A stretch of 64,000 nt of DNA. Origin: Eledone cirrhosa. Lineage: Eukaryota. Of the stretch, positions 23,050 to 63,669 are shown piece after piece. The notes beneath the pieces are model-generated. The model searched no databases and was not told the DNA's origin. It was given only the letters and a program-made list of their open reading frames with translations. The translations under genes and the position numbers were made by a program. The DNA is taken from the NCBI GenBank assembly GCA_964016885.1, contig OZ024742.1:263872001-263936000 (forward strand), written 5' to 3'. Positions within the stretch are counted from its first letter, which is position 1. Every line of letters starts with the position of its first letter.

Positions 23050-25916
23050 ATAAACAATGAGTTATTTGGTTTGTTGATTATTCAACAAAGTTAATTTATA
23101 ACAGGTTAGAAACACTCAACGGTATTTCCGGAGTATAATTAATACTTGGTTTGTAGACATTAAATCTAAAAATAATACAACATTTATACAAATGGATATA
23201 GTTAATTACTATTCTTTAATAACTCCTAATTTACTTAATAAAGCACTTATATACGCATCAAAACATACTGACTTATCTAGTGAAGAAATAAACATTATAT
23301 TAACTGCACGAAAAACTCTCATTGAACTTAACAATGATCTCTGGACTAGAGCTGATAGACAGAACAATTTCGATATTACAATGGGCTCTTCTGACTCACC
23401 TCAGGTCACAGATTTGGTTGGAATATTGATCCTTAATGCATTACGTAGGAAATTGCCGGAAATTGCCGGATGTTTATATCGTGATGATGCGTTATTTATA
23501 GTTGATAAACATAACAATAGTAAACTTAGCAGAAAAAAGAAAATTATTATAGACTTTTTTAATAATTATGGCCTTAAATTAGAAATAGAAAATGATAATA
23601 AAATTGTTAATTTCTTAGATGTTACATTAAACCTTAACTCAGGCCTATATTACCCGTTCCATAAGATTAATGAAAACCTAAACTACGTTAGCTTCTACTC
23701 TAACCACCCTAGAAATGTTAAACAAGCTATAGCTAATAGTATCCAGCAAAGAATATCTAAACTATCAGCTAATAAAAATATATTTGATAACAAGGCAGAA
23801 TATTACAATGACGCTCTACACAGAGCTGGATACAATAATAAAATTAATTACATAGATTAGAATAGTATACACCAACCTCCTAAACTGTACTATAATATTA
23901 ATAATAAATAAATTAACAAAAATAATAAATCGAATAAAAATGCTAGAACTAGAAATATAATTTGGTATTCTCCTCCAATTTCATTAAGAATTAGCGCACC
24001 AATCCTTTAGATAAATGTTTTCCTAAGTCCTATAAGTATCACTCCATTTTTAACAGACATACAGTCAAGCTCTCTTACTCTGCTACTATGAATAGAGCAC
24101 AATATATTAATAGAATTAATAATAGGTATTTAAAATTAAACTCAACCCAAATAAACTCAAATAGCAATAACAATATAACACATAACATTACGGTACGTAT
24201 AATAATAATAGCGAAGACATAAATCATCATACCGTTTCTCTAAATAATAATATTAGAGAATGTAATTGCGAAAATAACATATCATTCCCTTTACAGAATA
24301 ATTGCCTAGATACAAATTCAGTATACAAATGCACCGTAAAAACTAGAGATACATTATATAATTATATAGGAGCTACTTCTACAAAATTTAAGGACCGTTG
24401 GTATAATCATAAACATACTTTCAAACGATCGGACAAAAAATTCTCAACCTCACTATCACAATTAATTTGGTCTTTAAAAGACTTTAAAAGACTATTCGAT
24501 CTCTTGGCGAAGGATAGTGAAAGCGCCAGTTTACCGAAATATGGCTCTCTCAAGAATTTGTCATCTCTGTATTGAAGAAATCTTTCATATAATTACCAAT
24601 CCTGGTAATATTATTACAAAAAAAGGAAATATTTAATTCTTGTTTGCATCGATTCTCCAGAACATTTCACAATATTTACAATTTATAGAAAATACTCTGT
24701 ATAAGTTGAAATAGTCTGTATAAGCTGCCTATGTACAATATATATATATCTTTGGTTGTCTTTAAAAGTTCTAAAATTTATACATAGAAATTTTTAATAT
24801 TATCAAATTTATTCATAGATATACTTATTGTTATCAAAATCTATACATAGAAATATTTATCTTTTTATTATTATCTTGTGCCAAAAGTAGAAACAATTAT
24901 TATCTAGACCATATTTACTATATGGTACTCTGAAATCATATAGGAATTTTTAATTATATTATAATACAAATTATAATTAGTTATTAGGTTAAACATTAGA
25001 TTAAACAATATATCTTTAAATAATTTGCACTCTTTAAATTACTAAACACTAGAGTTATCTTTCCCTTAATAAAAGCTTGTTTACAATTCACATATACGAT
25101 ACATTCAAATTTTACATAAATGTTTAAATTTATATATTTAACCTTATATTATACAATAATAGATTACACATAATATTATAATACATCTTCTCTATAAAAA
25201 ATATATAATTATTTTCACAGTCTTAACCTATACATATAATCGCTATACATATCTTACGCGCTTTCATAATTGAATAAAACCTATATTCACGCATAATTAT
25301 TTATTTACTAAATACATTTTTTTAATAACGATATACAATAATGTCTTATACTACAATACATTATATTTATAACTGCACTCATCATAATATTGAAATGTAT
25401 GCGTAAAATATATCCAATCGTATATATAAATAGAGGGTATCTTTCACATATTATATTGCTTTAATAAAATAGTAGTTCTCAATTTAATACATTACTTTAT
25501 AATTCTCACCTAAATATTAGTAATACTTCCACATTATAAAATTAAATAAATAAAAATAAATATAATTATCTCATTCTTTCTTTAAATATGTTTGGGTGTA
25601 CATATGCGTATCTCTATAAATAATCCAAAATTAACTTTAAAATATTTTTTCAATTTTAATAGCAAACTTAAAAAAAAAAAAAAATTAGATAATTATTTAC
25701 AAGCTATCTAACATCTAAACTTAACAGTCCTTTTCAGTTTGAACGTTATCCTCATTAGCATATTTATCCAGAGCTTTGAACATTTATTCACTATCTTTAA
25801 ATCAAATATTGTATTTTATCTGATGAAAGCGTACTAAAATATTGGTACCTTTGAAATATGTATAATAAAATAATAAAATAAATATGGTTTTATAAAGATA
25901 TTTTCCATTTATTGAT

Positions 25917-26116: not shown

Positions 26117-26691
26117 TGGACATGGTTATACGGAATAGGAAGGACAACTGCGAAAGTCCGAAAAGTTTCTAGTTGATAAGAAAATTAGGATTTATGTTGT
26201 AATTCAATCCGGTGCTTTGTAGTTATGTAAGGGGTGTTTCCAGACGTGTGGACAACGTTTGAAGAATTCATATCTCGTGTTTAGGCAATCACTATTGCCT
26301 CCTGTGGTTGATTTGGTCGGTTGGAAGTGACCACAGCTTCATAAACTACAGCGGGTGTGTTGCATTGCTGTTGAAGGGGACAAGCTTCGGGCCTACAGCA
26401 AGAGCACCCTGGTGGGGTGTTTCTCTTAGGGCTGTTGGTGATGTGGGCCTTCATGTTCTTAGCGCAGGAGTATCCTAGTTTTACTTTGTGTCGGTTAAAG
26501 ATGGAACGGTATTTATGACCTATGGGAAAGTGTCTATCTAAGAGGGCTAGAAATCTTTTGCCTACATTGGTTTTAACGTTGAATGAGAAGGGAGGAGAGA
26601 ACCAGATAGTTTGTCTATTGTTACGCTTTCTTTTCTTATTGCTGTTGTTGATAGTGGGAGAGTAAGTGATAGATTGCGAGAAGCCGCTGTT

Positions 26692-27297
26692 AGCAAAAAC
26701 TTTCTAGCCCTCTTACATAGACACTTTCCCATAGGTCATAAATACCGCTCCATTTTTAACCGACACAAAGTAAAACTAGGATACTCCTGCGCTAAGAACA
26801 TGAAGGCCCACATCACCAACAGCCCTAAGAGCAACACCCCACCAGGGTGCTCTTGCCGTAATCCCGAAGCTTGTCCCCTTCAACAGCAATGCAACACACC
26901 CGCTGTAGTTTATGAAGCTGTGGTCACTTCCAACCGACCAAATCAACCACAGGAGGTCAAATCCTATGTGGGTATGGCGGAGGGCCGATTTAAGGAACGC
27001 TTCCTGAACCACCAGTCGACCTTTAGGTACCCGGATAGACATTCATCTACGAAACTCGCGAGCCACGTATGGTCCCTGAAGGACGCACGTATAGACTACT
27101 CCATTCAATGGAAAGCCATTACAAAGTCCAAGCCATACGCAAGGGGCAATCCGTCGTGTGGACTATGTATTGATGAACGAATAAATATTCTAAAGAGATT
27201 ACACAATAGTGATTGTCTAAACACGAGAAATGAATTCTTCACACGTTGTCCACACGTCTGGAAACACCTCTTACATAACTACAAAGCTCCAGATTGA
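26692..27297 (+). pseudogene. PLE linker + GIY-YIG endonuclease
   Basis: FNRHKVKLGYSC, CSCRNPEACPLQQQC, VVYEAVV...YVGMAEGRFKERFLNH, CGLCIDE, LNTRNEFFTRCPH. Confidence 0.85.
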
Positions 27298-30502: not shown

Positions 30503-30603
<101 letters not shown>

Positions 30604-30653
30604 GAATAAAATAACAGGAGGCTGGACTGGTGTAAATCCTTGAAAAGTTTATT

Positions 30654-30711
30654 ATACTAAGATCATTTCAATGACCGGGTTCCGTATGAATCCGGTGATA
30701 TCATCAGGTAT
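30654..30711 (-). ncRNA. Type I hammerhead ribozyme (mirror copy in H7)
   Basis: Reverse complement of 32407-32464 with one stem II loop change. Confidence 0.65.
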
Positions 30712-32406
30712 TCGAAATATAACAAAGGAATATATAAAAATCCATGTGTCCGAAAATCTGAGACAGAGTGGACGACTGACCAACTAGCTGTTTTTATCTC
30801 GGTCAGTCGCTCTCAAGTGATGGCTATTCGGTCTACTAATGACCATCTGGTGAAGGGGCGAAGGCTTATAATGTACTTATAATGTACTACCACCTCTCCG
30901 TCAGAGAATAAAAAAAGAGAAGAATGAAAGAAAGGAAAGGAAACGCCGCGAAAAATGTTATTCCAAAGAACCTATATTGTAACAGGCATATATAATGAGT
31001 GTCTGTATGGTCAAATGTGTGAACAGAAACTTATGTTAAGAGTTAAAGGATGAAATTAAATTAAAAGTTTAAAAAATTTTAGAGTTAAAAGAAATTAAAA
31101 AACTAATTAGAACATTAATAGAAAATTAAAGGTTTGGGTTGTGGGATTTATTTAATGAAACTACAGAGAGAGTCTTATATGAAAAAGTTTAAGTGTATTA
31201 TTGGGAATCCCTATAAGTTATCAAGGCGGGATATAGGGTAAAGATTAAAGCCTTCGATTGTAAATCCCAGCCAGCACCTCCTAACCACGTCTCGAGTGGT
31301 ATCGTCTAGCGAAAGAAATGGAAATAAATTTTTTCGAGTACTCTAGGAACGTGACTGCCATAGGCTTCAGATGTGCTAGCGGGAAGTCTACCATCTTCGA
31401 CAGACCATCGTCTATACCAAACGAATACTATTAATTCACACAGGAGGGGTTTATTTACGTGCCAGTAGAGGGAGGCATGATACAGCTAACAGTTATGCCT
31501 AAGCCCAGAGTTTATAGGTATAAGTATAAGTATAATATGGCGGTCAAAACAGGCGGCGCGGTGGGCCCCGGGGCAAATCCAACCGTTCCGAGTAGTTTCA
31601 TTTACCGAAAGAGGGGAAATTTATTTTTCCAAGCACTCAAGGAAGGCTGAACTCTCCGGCGCACAACCGGGAAAGCCACCGAAAGTGGTAAAACCCAATG
31701 AAAATAGACTATAATTATTTTTAAGTCCCAGTTAGTCCGGGTTATAAGTAGTGTGGTTCTTTGGTGGTTAGGGAACTATGAAAGGTGCATAAAGACCTGA
31801 GTAAGGAATAATAAGCAGAAAATCGAAGGCTTTAAATTTTACTCTATACCCTACCTTGATAACTTATAGGGATTCCCAATAATACACTTAAACTTTTTCA
31901 TATAAGACTCTCTCTGTAGTTTCATTAAATAAATCCCACAACCCAAACCTTTAATTTTCTATTAATTTTCTAATTATTTTTTTAATTCCTTTTAACTCTA
32001 AAGTTTTTTAAACTTTTAATTTAATTTCATCGTTTAACTCTTAACATAAGTTAATGTTCCAATTTTCTGTTCACACATTTGACCATACAGACACCCATTA
32101 TATATGCCTTTGTTAAAATATAGGTTCTTTGGAATAACATTTTTCGCGGCGTTTTCTTGCCTTACTGTAGTGTGACCCTTACGCTGACTCTTCTTCTTTC
32201 TTTCTTTCTTCTCTTTTTTATTCTCTGACGGAGAGGTGGTAGTACATTATAAGCCTTCGCCCCTTCACCAAATGGCCATTAGTAGACCGAATAGCCATCA
32301 CTTGAGGGCGTCTGACCGAAGTGAAAGCAGCTAGTTGGTCAGTCATTCTCTCTGTCTCTGATTTTCGGACCCATGGATTTTTATATATTCCTTTGTTATA
32401 TTTCGA

Positions 32407-32464
32407 ATACCTGATGATATCACCGGATTCATACGGCACCCGGTCATTGAAATGATCTTAGTAT
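32407..32464 (+). ncRNA. Type I hammerhead ribozyme
   Basis: atac-CTGATGA-tatcACCGG...CCGGTcatt-GAAA-tgatct-TA-gtat. Confidence 0.65.
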
Positions 32465-32656
32465 AATAAACTTTTCAAGGATTTACACCAGTCCAGCCTC
32501 CTGTTATTTTATTCATATTAATTAACTCCGTATTCGCACCACCAACTACACAAACAAAGACGGGTGAACTGCACTACGTTGAGTACTTTCCATAATATTA
32601 CATCAAGATTGACCATACGGTATGACCAATTCTATCCGGTGGTGAACCAACAAACC

Positions 32657-33362
<706 letters not shown>

Positions 33363-43642: not shown

Positions 43643-43706
<64 letters not shown>

Positions 43707-43744
43707 ATTAAATAAATGGAAAACTATATTTATAAAACCATATT

Positions 43745-43810
43745 TATTTCATTATATATATTTCGGGGATATCATATTAACAATATGCTATGCCTTCATC
43801 AGACAAAATA
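43745..43810 (-). ncRNA. Type I hammerhead ribozyme (H10 left arm)
   Basis: Reverse complement of 46086-46151. Confidence 0.78.
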
Positions 43811-44170
43811 CAATATAAACAGTTTTATAGATAAATATATTCGACATACCGTAATAAACATCAACTTCATTTGAAGAGGTTTACGCTAGCAGTGAAAATA
43901 CAGAGAGAAAGAAAGAGAGAAAGAAAAGAGGGAAAAACGAAAGAAAGAAAGACAAAACGAAGAAAAGGAAGAAAAAGAAGAAAAAGAAAAAGAAGAAATG
44001 CATGGAACAAAATAGAGAGATGGAAAAATAGATAAAGTGAAGAGCTTCATGTAAAGAGACAGAAAGATATATATATATATATAGAGAGAGGAAATAGAGA
44101 TAGATACATATATATATATAGAAAATTAGGTAGTGGGAGGTCATTTTGAGTAAGTGTATCAATGATACAT

Positions 44171-44205
<35 letters not shown>

Positions 44206-45690
44206 GCTCAAGTATTAATGTAAGGGAGATATATAGAGAGATATAGAGAGATATAGAGAGAGAAAAAAATTTAAAAATATCCAGACATATTCGAGGCGTA
44301 GAAAACCCTATGTTTTAATGTATTAGTATTTATAAAACTTACACTACACTGTAAATATCAGTATTCCTGAATGAAACAAGTATTCACAATGTGTGAAAAT
44401 TCATTATCTTATGTTTAGTTTTAAAAATTCATATGTCTATGTGACAGCTACAAATCTCAATGTGAATCCAACTGATTCACTCCGCAAACTCTAAGTTATC
44501 GGAAAACATTCTCAATGTGGTATAAAAATTTGAGCGTATTATTATTCTTGCGATTACTCTACAAGATTATCTATCAAGCAGAAATAGAGAGCAGATTTCA
44601 ATATACTAATCGAAAATATATATTATATTATAAACAAAGATAACAATAATAATAATAATAAGTAAAAATATATAAAAATATAGAATAGAAAACTAAAAAA
44701 ATATTACGAAAGAATATTACATAATAAAAATATTGCATATTAAAAATACTACGTATTAAAAAATATTACGTATTAAAGATTTACATATAAAAATTTACAT
44801 ATAAAAATATACATATAAAAATTTACATATAAAAATTTACATATAAAAATATATAAAAATATTAAAAAAATAAAAAATATTAAAAAAATAAAATAAAAAT
44901 AAAAATATTATAGAATACTACAATACTAAAAGAATAAAAGTAAAAATAAAAATAAAAATAAAAATAAAAATAAAAATAAAAATAAAAATAAAAATAAAAA
45001 TAAAAATAAAAATAAAAATAAAAATAAAAATAAAAATAAAAATAAAAATAAAAATAAAAATAAAAATAAAAATAAAAATAAAAATAAAAATAAAAATAAA
45101 AATAAAAATAAAAATAAAAATAAAAATAAAAATAAAAATAAAAATAAAAATGAAAATAAAAATAAACCACAAAAAACAACCCTTCAAAGTTAATTGACAA
45201 TATATTGCCAAGTTCACTACAAGACAAAGCCAAAAATTATCTATCAAATCACATCTAGCAAAGAATATCGTATATCATATTTTCGATTAGTATATTGAAA
45301 TCTGCTCTCTATTTCTGCTTGATAGATAATCTTGTAGAGTAATCGCAAGAATAATAATACGCTCAAATTTTTATACCACATTGAGAATGTTTTCCGATAA
45401 CTTAGAGTTTGCGGAGTGAATCAGTTGGATTCACATTGAGATTTGTAGTTGTCACATAGACATATGAATTTTTAAAACTAAACATAAGATAATGAATTTT
45501 CACACATTGTGAATACTTGTTTCATTCAGGAATACTGATATTTACAGTGTAGTGTAAGTTTTATAAATACTAATACATTAAAACATAGGGTTTTCTACGC
45601 CTCGAATATGTCTGGATATTTTTAAATTTTTTTCTCTCTCTATATCTCTCTATATCTCTCTATATATCTCCCTTACATTAATACTTGAGC

Positions 45691-45725
<35 letters not shown>

Positions 45726-46085
45726 ATGTATCATTGATACACTTACTCAAAATGACCTCCCACTACCTAATTTTATATATATATATATGTATCTATCTCT
45801 ATTTCCTCTCTCTCTATATATATATATATCTTTCTGTCTCTTTACATGAAGCTCTTCACTTTATCTATTTTTCCATCTCTCTATTTTGTTCCATGCATTT
45901 CTTCTTTTTCTTTTTCTTCTTTTTCTTCCTTTTCTTCGTTTTGTCTTTCTTTCTTTCGTTTTTCCCTCTTTTCTTTCTCTCTTTCTTTCTCTCTGTATTT
46001 TCACTGCTAGCGTAAACCTCTTCAAATGAAGTTGATGTTTATTACGGTATGTCGAATATATTTATCTATAAAACTGTTTATATTG

Positions 46086-46151
46086 TATTTTGTCTGATGA
46101 AGGCATAGCATATTGTTAATATGATATCCCCGAAATATATATAATGAAATA
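46086..46151 (+). ncRNA. Type I hammerhead ribozyme (H10 right arm)
   Basis: tattttgt-CTGATGA-aggcatagCATATTgttAATATGatatcccc-GAAA-tatata-TA-atgaaata. Confidence 0.78.
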
Positions 46152-46279
46152 AATATGGTTTTATAAATATAGTTTTCCATTTATTTAATATTGTAAATAT
46201 ACTCCAAATATTTGTCGAGTGCTTTTATATCAGTTATAAATATTTACTAGTTGTAACCCAACAATTTTAAATATAACTT

Positions 46280-48889: not shown

Positions 48890-49262
48890 TACGATATTAA
48901 ACAAATGGAAACTATATTTATAAAACCATATTTATTTCATTATACATATTTCGGGGATACCATATTAAAAATATGGCATGCCTTCGTCAGATAAAATACA
49001 ATATATAAACAGTTTTATAAATAATTTTGACGTACGTCAAAATTATTTATAAAACTGTTTATATATTGTATTTTATCTGACGAAGGCATGCCATATTTTT
49101 AATATGGTATCCCCGAAATATGTATAATGAAATAAATATGGTTTTATAAATATAGTTTCCATTTGTTTAATATCGTATATCTACTCCAAAAACTTGTCGA
49201 GTGCTTTATATCAGTTATAAAATATTTACTTGTTGTAACCCAACAATTTTAAATAAAACTTT

Positions 49263-49266
<4 letters not shown>
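48890..49266. mobile_element. Fold-back element H11: perfect 288-bp palindrome (48890-49177) plus tail; same family as H10
   Basis: Centre ttttgacgt|acgtcaaaa with no spacer. The tail 49178-49266 is homologous to the H10 tail. Confidence 0.92.
49069..49134 (+). ncRNA. Type I hammerhead ribozyme (mirror copy at 48933-48998 minus)
   Basis: tattttat-CTGACGA-aggcATGCCATATTtttAATATGGTATcccc-GAAA-tatgta-TA-atgaaata. Confidence 0.8.
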
Positions 49267-49314
<48 letters not shown>

Positions 49315-62672: not shown

Positions 62673-62748
<76 letters not shown>

Positions 62749-62753
<5 letters not shown>

Positions 62754-63131
62754 TTCAAAAGATGGTTAAAAGAGTTCCAAGTATTTTATTATGCGCATTT
62801 CATAAACAAATATCATCATGGGATGATATCTGCGTTCTCATCAGATAAAATAGGGAGACATATGAAGCTTAAAAACACTGATATGTTGATTTAAAACTTC
62901 ACTATTCACAAGTGTTTTTTAAGCTTCATATCATGTCTCCTTATTTTATCTGATGAGAACGCAGATGTCATCCCATGATATTTGTTTTTGAAATGCGCAT
63001 AATAAAATACTTGGGACTCTTTTAACCATCTTTTGATCTTATATTATTTATACTCCAGTCCTACAAACTGTAGAGTGCTTCTTATCCGATATTTGCATTG
63101 CTTTATTGTGCTACAATAAAACTCACCTCCT

Positions 63132-63133
<2 letters not shown>
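62749..63133. mobile_element. Fold-back element H13 with hammerheads at 62781-62852 (-) and 62942-63009 (+)
   Basis: tattttat-CTGATGA-gaacgcagatgtcatcccatgatatttgttttt-GAAA-tgcgca-TA-ataaaata; arms diverged; tail to 63133. Confidence 0.88.
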
Positions 63134-63166
<33 letters not shown>

Positions 63167-63170
<4 letters not shown>

Positions 63171-63588
63171 AGATCAAAAGATGGTTAAAGGAGTTCCATG
63201 TATTTTATTATGCGCATTTCAAAAACAAACATCATCATGCAATAATATTTGTGTTTTCATCAGATAAAACAGGAGGACATGATATGAAGGCTAAAAAACA
63301 CTTGTGGATAGTGCAGTTTTAAATCAACATATCATATGTTGATTTAAAACTGCACTATCCACAAGTGTTTTTTAGCCTTCATATCATGTCCTCCTGTTTT
63401 ATCTGATGAAAACACAAATATTATTGCATGATGATGTTTGTTTTTGAAATGCGCATAATAAAATACATGGAACTCCTTTAACCATCTTTTGATCTTATAT
63501 ATTATGTATACTCCAGTCCTACAAACTGTACAGTGCTTCTTATCCGATATCTGCATTGCTTTATTGTACTACAATAAAACTCACCTCC

Positions 63589-63592
<4 letters not shown>
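63167..63592. mobile_element. Fold-back element H14: perfect palindrome (centre 63333) with hammerheads at 63202-63270 (-) and 63396-63464 (+)
   Basis: About 166-bp arms with a 1-nt centre; same family and tail as H13; (TA)n flanks. Confidence 0.92.

Positions 63593-63669
<77 letters not shown>

What the first reader, a model, noticed from the sequence alone, without database searches (positions are those of the whole stretch)
62749..63592. Two adjacent copies define a ~255-nt hammerhead unit with fixed ends
Seen: in both H13 and H14 the plus-strand unit begins at the same sequence (atatgttgatttaaaact at 62881 and 63334) and ends at the same point (aaaactcacctcctaca). The inverted arm also stops at the same site (cttttga.cttata). 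H14 is a perfect palindrome while H13 has diverged arms, so they look like independent insertions of different age. Inference: a discrete small non-autonomous RNA element rather than random 5' truncation.
Basis: partly seen in the sequence, partly recalled or inferred. Interest (0 to 1): 0.75.

Follow-up and report, generated by a model that had tools for sequence, protein, structure and literature searches.

The report
Penelope retrotransposon end-repeat, head-to-head stubs
The 259-base hammerhead unit is the end repeat of a very common protein-coding jumping gene, not a separate small RNA element; these two short mirror-image insertions were likely written from both strands of a DNA cut by a copying enzyme that started near the front of the gene's RNA and likely ran off its capped first base.

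Summary
In detail: H13 and H14 share start, end and inverted-arm stop, and are independent insertions. The interpretation mostly fails. The unit is the pseudo-LTR (pLTR) of a 3.7-kb Penelope-like element (PLE) with Hydra-clade motifs. Its 3' part has 13,139 exact matches genome-wide. Copies carry it before and after an intact ~800-aa RT plus GIY-YIG ORF, and H14 is identical over nt 1-~170 to ORF-linked pLTRs. 5' ends are mixed: of 90 position-ordered copies, 31 read into the element's 3' UTR, 34 are scattered truncations and 25 start at nt 1. So nt 1 is a real hotspot; the ribozyme cut site (nt 125) is at most a weak one. Insertions pair one tail-less arm with one ~90-nt-tailed arm (42 of 43), each truncated independently. 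An extra G marks nt 1 (single G:C centre in 272 loci, A:T in 5). Best reading (inferred): priming from both DNA strands at two internal RNA sites, running off a capped 5' end. The architecture is in print; I found no paper stating the two-strand or cap steps. This scan noted the same model in other genomes. No RNA data were available.

The parts
62678..62751 (.). (TA)n target microsatellite left of H13
   Evidence: (TA)n or (CA)n follows 86 of 90 sampled tailed ends
62749..62879 (-). H13 inverted arm: pLTR nt 31 to ~169, 5'-truncated, no tail
62880..62880 (+). non-templated G directly before nt 1 of H13 (the element's 3' UTR has C here; the partner arm would give T); likely copied cap
62881..63134 (+). 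H13 main arm: full pLTR nt 1-259 with tail; older subfamily
62942..63009 (+). type I hammerhead of H13 main arm (core CTGATGA at 62950, predicted cut after 63001)
63132..63170 (.). (CA)n(TA)n spacer: the microsatellite after H13 into which H14 likely inserted
   Evidence: order of events inferred from H14's identical arms
63164..63332 (-). H14 inverted arm: pLTR nt 1-169, no tail, 100% complementary to the main arm
63333..63333 (.). single C:G pair at the palindrome centre; this junction occurs in 272 loci, an A:T centre in 5
63334..63592 (+). H14 main arm: full pLTR nt 1-259; identical over nt 1-~170 to ORF-linked pLTRs (L151, L149, L153)
63395..63465 (+). type I hammerhead of H14: helix I TTTTAT/ATAAAA, core CTGATGA 63403, long helix II, GAAA, palindromic helix III TGCGCA, predicted cut after 63457
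63496..63507 (+). short 3' end site (nt ~163-174, TA-like; BLAST reports it as 177); inferred first reverse-transcription start
63503..63592 (+). ~90-nt tail found on one arm only; its end (nt 259-261) is the inferred second start; in tandem copies it runs on into the ORF leader (ATG at nt 343)
63591..63668 (.). (TA)n target microsatellite right of H14

Best explanation
H13 and H14 are two independent, ORF-less insertions of the end repeat (pLTR) of an autonomous Penelope-like retrotransposon with Hydra-clade motifs, each likely made when the element's enzyme cut a (TA)n repeat and primed copying from both DNA strands at two fixed sites inside the RNA's 5' pLTR, then likely ran off the capped 5' end at nt 1. 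Shown: the unit is the pLTR of a 3.7-kb element (pLTR, ORF from nt 343, ~0.8-kb 3' UTR, pLTR). Shown: insertions sit in (TA)n and pair a short-ended arm (nt ~166-174) head-to-head with a tailed arm (nt 259-261). Shown: each arm has its own 5' break, nt 1 is the dominant break, and G is enriched just before nt 1. Inferred: the two ends are RT start sites, as measured in vitro for the anole PLE. Inferred: the two cDNAs are joined 3' end to 3' end by microhomology or short fill, and nt 1 is a capped Pol II start in a TCA initiator-like context. Priming in the 5' pLTR would give solo stubs such as H13 and H14; priming in the 3' pLTR would give body-carrying copies. The hammerhead is carried along and does not define the ends.
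For: Body and ORF: shared 3' UTR, endonuclease and RT lie upstream of nt 1 in 8 of the 30 loci. 20 loci picked for the ORF start show pLTR-ORF-UTR-pLTR, 3 with an unbroken ~800-aa frame. The fold model's top hits are telomerase RTs; the C-terminal domain gives weak hits to T4 EndoII, Hpy188I and I-TevI. End rule: 42 of 43 antisense partner arms found lack the tail. In 13 of 13 ORF-bearing loci where both ends were seen, one is short and one tailed, whichever arm is longer (read by eye). Partner arms often hold sequence missing from the tailed arm (L039, L045, L047, L102), which excludes simple fold-back copying of the tailed arm. Arms within a locus differ by 2.0% against 7.1% between loci (24 loci). 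nt 1: 25 of 90 tailed arms start there against 34 spread over ~220 nt. Of 82 arms that contain nt 1, 42 start there and 40 read on into the UTR. Base before nt 1 genome-wide: G 2,557, A/T 2,820, C 8,976, C being the templated base. One-base centres: 272 G:C against 5 A:T. Last base of non-templated fill is G in 7 of 15 against 5 of 57 interior bases (p = 0.002). In vitro precedent: PMC11167929 (both strands cut and extended, two internal start sites equal to the tail ends).
Against: No RNA evidence for a start or cap at nt 1. A one-base G:C centre can also be a templated C read from the 3' UTR (TC|ATATG), although no two-base TC/GA centre appeared among 24 nt1-nt1 junctions. Many G(-1) cases are microhomology or flush joins where the partner arm supplies the G (14 of 30 sampled, 5 of them one-base centres). 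The fill test is small, had ambiguous centres removed by hand, and counts both sides of some junctions. In 47 of 90 loci no partner end lay within the fetched stretch, so the end rule was not tested there. Within-locus arm identity could come from later gene conversion. Clade placement rests on motifs, not a tree; the element is longer (3.7 kb) than described Hydra families and reads RWI for RWK. Pfam and PDB sequence searches gave no RT or GIY-YIG hit. Solo arms are marginally closer to other solo arms than to body-linked arms (mean 1.18% against 1.29%).
Confidence: 0.72

Rival explanations
1. Solo pLTR stubs are themselves transcribed from an internal promoter and are re-mobilised in trans as a SINE-like non-autonomous family.
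For: About half of the arms that contain nt 1 start there (42 of 82). Drosophila Penelope has an internal downstream promoter in its pLTR (PMC2377424, passages). Median distance from a solo arm to the nearest solo arm is 0.6%, to the nearest body-linked arm 1.2% (solo arms were more numerous and some loci were fetched twice).
Against: No diagnostic solo variants among 194 arms; H14 is identical to ORF-linked pLTRs and H13's nearest arm is UTR-linked. Junction fill varies, so the palindrome is not copied as a unit. A perfect 169-bp hairpin RNA would be a poor template (inference).
Confidence: 0.12
2. The inverted arm arises by self-priming or fold-back on an antisense template (the model offered in PMC3846280), and nt 1 is a fold-back hotspot because ATAT is self-complementary.
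For: ATAT or AT overlaps at the centre are common (11 of 42 arms starting at nt 1). Arms within a locus are near identical.
Against: Either arm can be the longer one, and tail-less arms often contain sequence absent from the tailed arm. The tail-less arm still stops at a fixed site. nt 1 is also the break when the partner is broken internally (13 of 42). The extra G is not explained.
Confidence: 0.1
3. The unit is a retrozyme-like RNA cut out by its hammerhead and circularised (~250 nt).
For: The hammerhead core is intact and invariant across three families in the window. Two-base-mismatch junction patterns give 111 hits at nt 125 against 39 and 31 at control sites.
Against: At least 11 of 30 inspected nt-125 hits are internal 3-nt deletions, not ends, leaving at most a twofold excess against thousands of arms at nt 1. 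The cut lies mid-unit. Copies are head-to-head, not direct tandem repeats as animal retrozymes are defined (10.64898/2026.07.22.740005, part 1 read).
Confidence: 0.03
4. H13 and H14 are a local tandem duplication, or H14's perfect palindrome is an assembly fold-back artefact.
For: The two copies are adjacent and in the same orientation; H14's arms are 100% identical.
Against: Each copy has closer relatives elsewhere than in its neighbour. Their inverted arms break at different places (nt 31 and nt 1). The H14 junction recurs in 272 loci and the short end matches the family rule.
Confidence: 0.03

Closest known systems
Hydra clade of C-terminal EN+ Penelope-like elements (Craig et al. 2021, PMC8557442; section 11, passages and supplement part 2 read)
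   Same: Single ORF with DKT, CxCx5C linker, CxxC before the conserved E, CxH after the conserved N, hammerhead in the pLTR, insertion into (TA)n, 5'-truncated inverted copy.
   Different: 3.7 kb against generally under 3 kb; RWI for RWK; an ~70-aa Asn-rich insert before the endonuclease that the 11 homologs reaching this region lack; long helix II and 6-nt palindromic helix III; tail ~90 nt against the 30-40 bp given for PLEs.
Poseidon_Ac (PAc) of the green anole (Frangieh et al. 2024, PMC11167929; parts 1-2 of 4 read)
   Same: AT-rich target, both strands cut and extended, two internal RT start sites that match the tail ends, hammerhead cleavage not needed for insertion.
   Different: Other PLE clade. 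In PAc the starts lie inside the ORF; here both lie upstream of the ATG, ~90 nt apart. The parts read do not derive head-to-head stubs or a copied cap.
Inverted-pLTR Penelope insertions of Adineta vaga and Drosophila virilis (PMC3846280, PMC2377424; passages read)
   Same: Head-to-head inverted pLTR, tail on one end only, solo pLTRs, internal promoter with an initiator-like sequence.
   Different: Those papers explain palindromes by self-priming on an antisense template and solo pLTRs by recombination or deletion. The independent truncation of both arms seen here fits two priming events better.
Animal non-LTR retrozymes (bioRxiv 10.64898/2026.07.22.740005, part 1 of 5; PLE hammerheads in PMC4209133, passages)
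   Same: Type I hammerhead with weak palindromic helix III, pLTR-related, about 250 nt, no protein.
   Different: Retrozymes are direct tandem repeats processed at the ribozyme; these are head-to-head pairs whose ends ignore the cut site.

Membership tests
EN+ Penelope-like element | Single ORF with telomerase-like RT | tested here: met
   799-aa ORF with YRDD in L140; fold search ranks TERT structures 1-8; no Pfam hit
EN+ Penelope-like element | C-terminal GIY-YIG endonuclease | tested here: met
   IY..YxG, R, E, N invariant in 11 sequences; model matches T4 EndoII (prob 0.91, E 0.1), Hpy188I, I-TevI weakly; that these are GIY-YIG enzymes is recalled
EN+ Penelope-like element | pLTR repeated before and after the ORF, carrying a hammerhead | tested here: met
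   (L144, L146, L149, L151, L154, L155)
EN+ Penelope-like element | 5'-truncated inverted copy at the 5' end; tail at one end only | tested here: met
   42 of 43 partner arms lack the tail; the tail is ~90 nt, not 30-40
Hydra clade | DKT in place of DKG | tested here: met
   DKT at 123
Hydra clade | CxCx5C linker; CxxC and CxH beside the conserved E and N | tested here: met
   658-666, 758-764, 786-788
Hydra clade | N-terminal RWK motif | tested here: inconclusive
   RLRWI here; RWK in 8 of the 9 homologs that cover the site
Hydra clade | Insertion into (TA)n | tested here: met
   86 of 90 tailed ends followed by TA/CA repeats
Hydra clade | Generally shorter than 3 kb | tested here: not met
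   3.7-3.8 kb from nt 1 to the 3' pLTR end in L154 and L144; the paper says 'generally'
Hydra clade | Groups with Hydra RTs in a tree; lacks the internal CCHH motif and IFD | not tested
Non-LTR retrozyme | Direct tandem repeats, each with a hammerhead | tested here: not met
   copies are head-to-head pairs split by microsatellite
Non-LTR retrozyme | Unit ends set by ribozyme cleavage | tested here: not met
   cut at nt 124/125 is at most a weak 5' break; ends lie at nt 1, ~170 and 259
Non-LTR retrozyme | Abundant circular or monomer RNA | not testable with these tools
   no RNA holder listed
Separate non-autonomous family (SINE- or MITE-like) | Own lineage, copied as a unit | tested here: not met
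   no solo-specific variants among 194 arms; variable junction fill; sample is about 1% of arms

The most novel reading that the evidence does not exclude
Thousands of solo stubs in this genome record the whole Penelope insertion reaction in vivo: one enzyme dimer primes both strands of a cut (TA)n site from two RNA sites 90 nt apart, copies to the cap (adding a cap-templated base), and joins the two cDNAs head-to-head. That would explain inverted pLTRs, one-sided tails and solo pLTRs with one mechanism, and would replace the antisense self-priming model. Intact ORFs and a pLTR identical to H14 make it directly reconstitutable.
Probability: 0.6. Interest if true: 0.5.

Novelty: new member of a known kind. 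Interest (0 to 1): 0.3.

Why it matters
As a claimed new small RNA element it is ordinary: it is the end repeat of a known class of retrotransposon. Its value is mechanistic. How PLEs make head-to-head ends and solo pLTRs is open. This family gives large counts for a one-short, one-tailed end rule, for a sharp 5' boundary with an extra G, and against the ribozyme cut as a major template end. It also has young intact ORFs of a clade for which I saw no biochemical study in the papers retrieved.

Tried and rejected
Rfam scan of the window: no hit. Pfam on two ORFs and five homologs: no RT or GIY-YIG family. PDB profile search: none. RNA runs: no RNA holder listed, so no reads were laid. Idea that 5' truncations pile up at the ribozyme cut, suggested by the table: at most twofold over controls after removing deletions; the control hits were not inspected. 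BLAST's '177' end was rejected as over-extension into (TA)n; the short end lies at nt ~166-174. Apparent 5' ends at -89 and -406 are alignment breaks at 3' UTR indels, not element ends. Minimum-energy folding does not give the catalytic hammerhead fold as a monomer, as expected for a weak helix III. Sequence look-up in earlier findings: nothing. Paper searches for a two-strand priming or copied-cap account of PLE ends listed none beyond those cited; listings only, subscription journals not covered. The host organism was not determined.

Full report
Observation. BLAST of 63334-63592 against the window finds only the four arms of H13 and H14. H14's arms are 169 of 169 complementary around one base. 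H13's arms differ by 5 substitutions and 3 gaps over 131 nt, and its inverted arm begins at nt 31. All four arms hold a type I hammerhead: helix I TTTTAT/ATAAAA, CTGATGA, a long helix II, GAAA, a palindromic TGCGCA helix III and a predicted cut after nt 124. The core is invariant in two other families in the window. H13 and H14 are 89% alike, but each has closer relatives elsewhere among the fetched loci (95.7% and 99.2%). They are independent insertions; H14 likely landed in the microsatellite that follows H13.

What the unit is. The genome is 3.0 Gb. A 27-nt pattern from the unit's 3' part has 13,139 exact matches and the reversed control none. In 8 of the 30 loci, nt 1 is preceded by a shared ~0.8-kb 3' UTR and then endonuclease and RT coding sequence. 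[quoted passage not shown] Twenty loci picked for the ORF start show the order pLTR, ORF, 3' UTR, pLTR, about 3.7 kb; three have an unbroken ~800-aa frame. The protein has DKT, YRDD, CxCx5C, IY..YxG, CxxC..E and CxH, conserved in 13 unnamed homologs. Its model matches telomerase RTs best; the C-terminal domain matches T4 EndoII, Hpy188I and I-TevI weakly. These motifs, the hammerhead and the (TA)n target match the Hydra clade of PLEs as described in PMC8557442 (section 11; supplement part 2). Length and RWI differ, and no tree was built.

Are the ends fixed? I took the first 90 fetched of the 100 listed pattern matches on contig C1, unselected for 5' end (one overlapping place was skipped). 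87 of 90 end at nt 259-262 and 3 continue into the ORF. At the 5' end, 31 read on into the 3' UTR, 25 start at nt -13 to +5 and 34 are scattered from nt 6 to 222. So the family shows ordinary 5' truncation plus one sharp hotspot at nt 1. The ribozyme cut is at most a weak one: 111 junction-like hits at nt 125 against 39 and 31 at controls, and at least 11 of 30 inspected are internal deletions. The nt-125 patterns demanded two mismatched bases and the nt-1 counts one, so only the order of magnitude can be compared.

No separate lineage. Among 194 arms covering nt 1-~170 (108 solo, 86 body-linked), no column is more than 25 points commoner in solo arms. H14's arms are identical to pLTRs of ORF-bearing copies, and H13's nearest arm is UTR-linked. 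Fill at head-to-head junctions varies (C, CC, CATG, AGG, overlaps of 2 or 4 nt and others), so the palindrome is rebuilt at each insertion. Against this, solo arms are slightly closer to other solo arms (mean 1.18% against 1.29%), in a sample richer in solo arms and with some loci fetched twice.

End rule. Where an antisense partner arm was found upstream, it lacked the tail in 42 of 43 loci; in 47 of 90 no partner end lay in the fetched stretch. In 13 of 13 ORF-bearing loci with both ends visible, one end is short and one tailed, whichever arm is longer (by eye). The short end lies at nt ~166-174 in a TA-like stretch, the long end at nt 259-261. Tail-less arms often carry sequence missing from the tailed arm, so they are not fold-back copies of it. 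Arms of one locus differ by 2.0%, arms of different loci by 7.1% (24 loci), which points to one template source or to later conversion.

nt 1 as a capped start (inferred). In the element nt 1 follows TC (TC|ATATG), an initiator-like context (recalled consensus). Genome-wide the base before the nt-1 motif is G 2,557, A/T 2,820 and C 8,976 times; 2,401 of the C matches are exact 3' UTR joins. One-base palindrome centres are G:C in 272 loci and A:T in 5. Non-templated fill ends in G in 7 of 15 cases against 5 of 57 interior bases, after removing ambiguous C/G and CC/GG centres. H13 has such a G and H14 a G:C centre. That RTs copy the cap as an extra G is recalled from LINE work, not read here. 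The G:C centre could instead be a templated C; no TC/GA centre was seen in 24 junctions. Of 82 arms containing nt 1, 42 start there and 40 read through, as expected if the 5' and 3' pLTRs of the RNA are primed about equally.

Mechanism. Transcription from nt 1 gives pLTR-ORF-UTR-pLTR RNA (inferred). The protein cuts both strands of (TA)n and starts one cDNA at nt ~170 and one at nt ~259 (inferred, by analogy with PMC11167929, parts 1-2 read). Each cDNA stops early or at the cap, and the two are joined head-to-head. Priming in the 5' pLTR yields stubs such as H13 and H14. The hammerhead's role stays open; PMC11167929 found it dispensable for insertion in vitro.

Known or new. Inverted pLTRs, one-sided tails, solo pLTRs and pLTR hammerheads are in print (PMC8557442; PMC3846280, passages; PMC4209133, passages; PMC2377424, passages). 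PMC3846280 explains the palindromes by antisense self-priming. Searches listed no paper stating two-strand priming or a copied cap for PLE ends; I saw listings only, and unread parts or supplements of PMC11167929 may bear on this. Earlier notes of this scan report the same model in other genomes; my reading was written down before that, and those notes are unchecked. Verdict: a new member of a known kind, interest 0.3.

Noticed in passing
window 48893-49267: Solo head-to-head stub of a second hammerhead family with the same anatomy: (TA)n, tail-less arm, palindromic centre, arm with a ~90-nt tail, (TA)n. Its tail shares a TACTCCA...AGTGCTT pattern with the H14 tail.
   Followed up: partly
window 43695-46201: Insertion of that second family with 930-nt inverted arms, 99.5% identical, hammerheads at 43802 (-) and 46094 (+); short end on the left, tail on the right.
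   Followed up: partly
window 23144-25900: Degraded related PLE: RT and endonuclease pieces about 50% identical to the L140 ORF, leading to a hammerhead at 25820 and a (TA)n end.
   Followed up: partly
window 26298-27276: Inverted fragments of another PLE (endonuclease and RT thumb, about 31% identical to the L140 ORF).
   Followed up: no
L138-L157: In ORF-bearing insertions the long arm ends at the short site in 17 of 20 and at the tailed site in 3; the reason for the bias is unexplained.
   Followed up: no
L140 ORF residues ~580-657: Asn/Ser/Thr-rich disordered insert between RT and endonuclease, absent from homologs; N-rich inserts are described for rotifer Penelope (PMC3846280).
   Followed up: no
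L172, L177, L180, L282, L283: Short duplications of nt 1-8 at the junction (ATATGTTG repeated), consistent with a cDNA end re-annealing at the internal GAT.
   Followed up: partly
L031 1624-3620 and L033 3789-4883 (oriented coordinates): Two further, more distant PLE ORFs with the same motifs lie near family copies, so several such families coexist in this genome.
   Followed up: no
window 30601-32517 and 32704-33103: Further long inverted repeats (700 nt at 87%; 400-nt palindrome at 96%) without a hammerhead match under my pattern.
   Followed up: no
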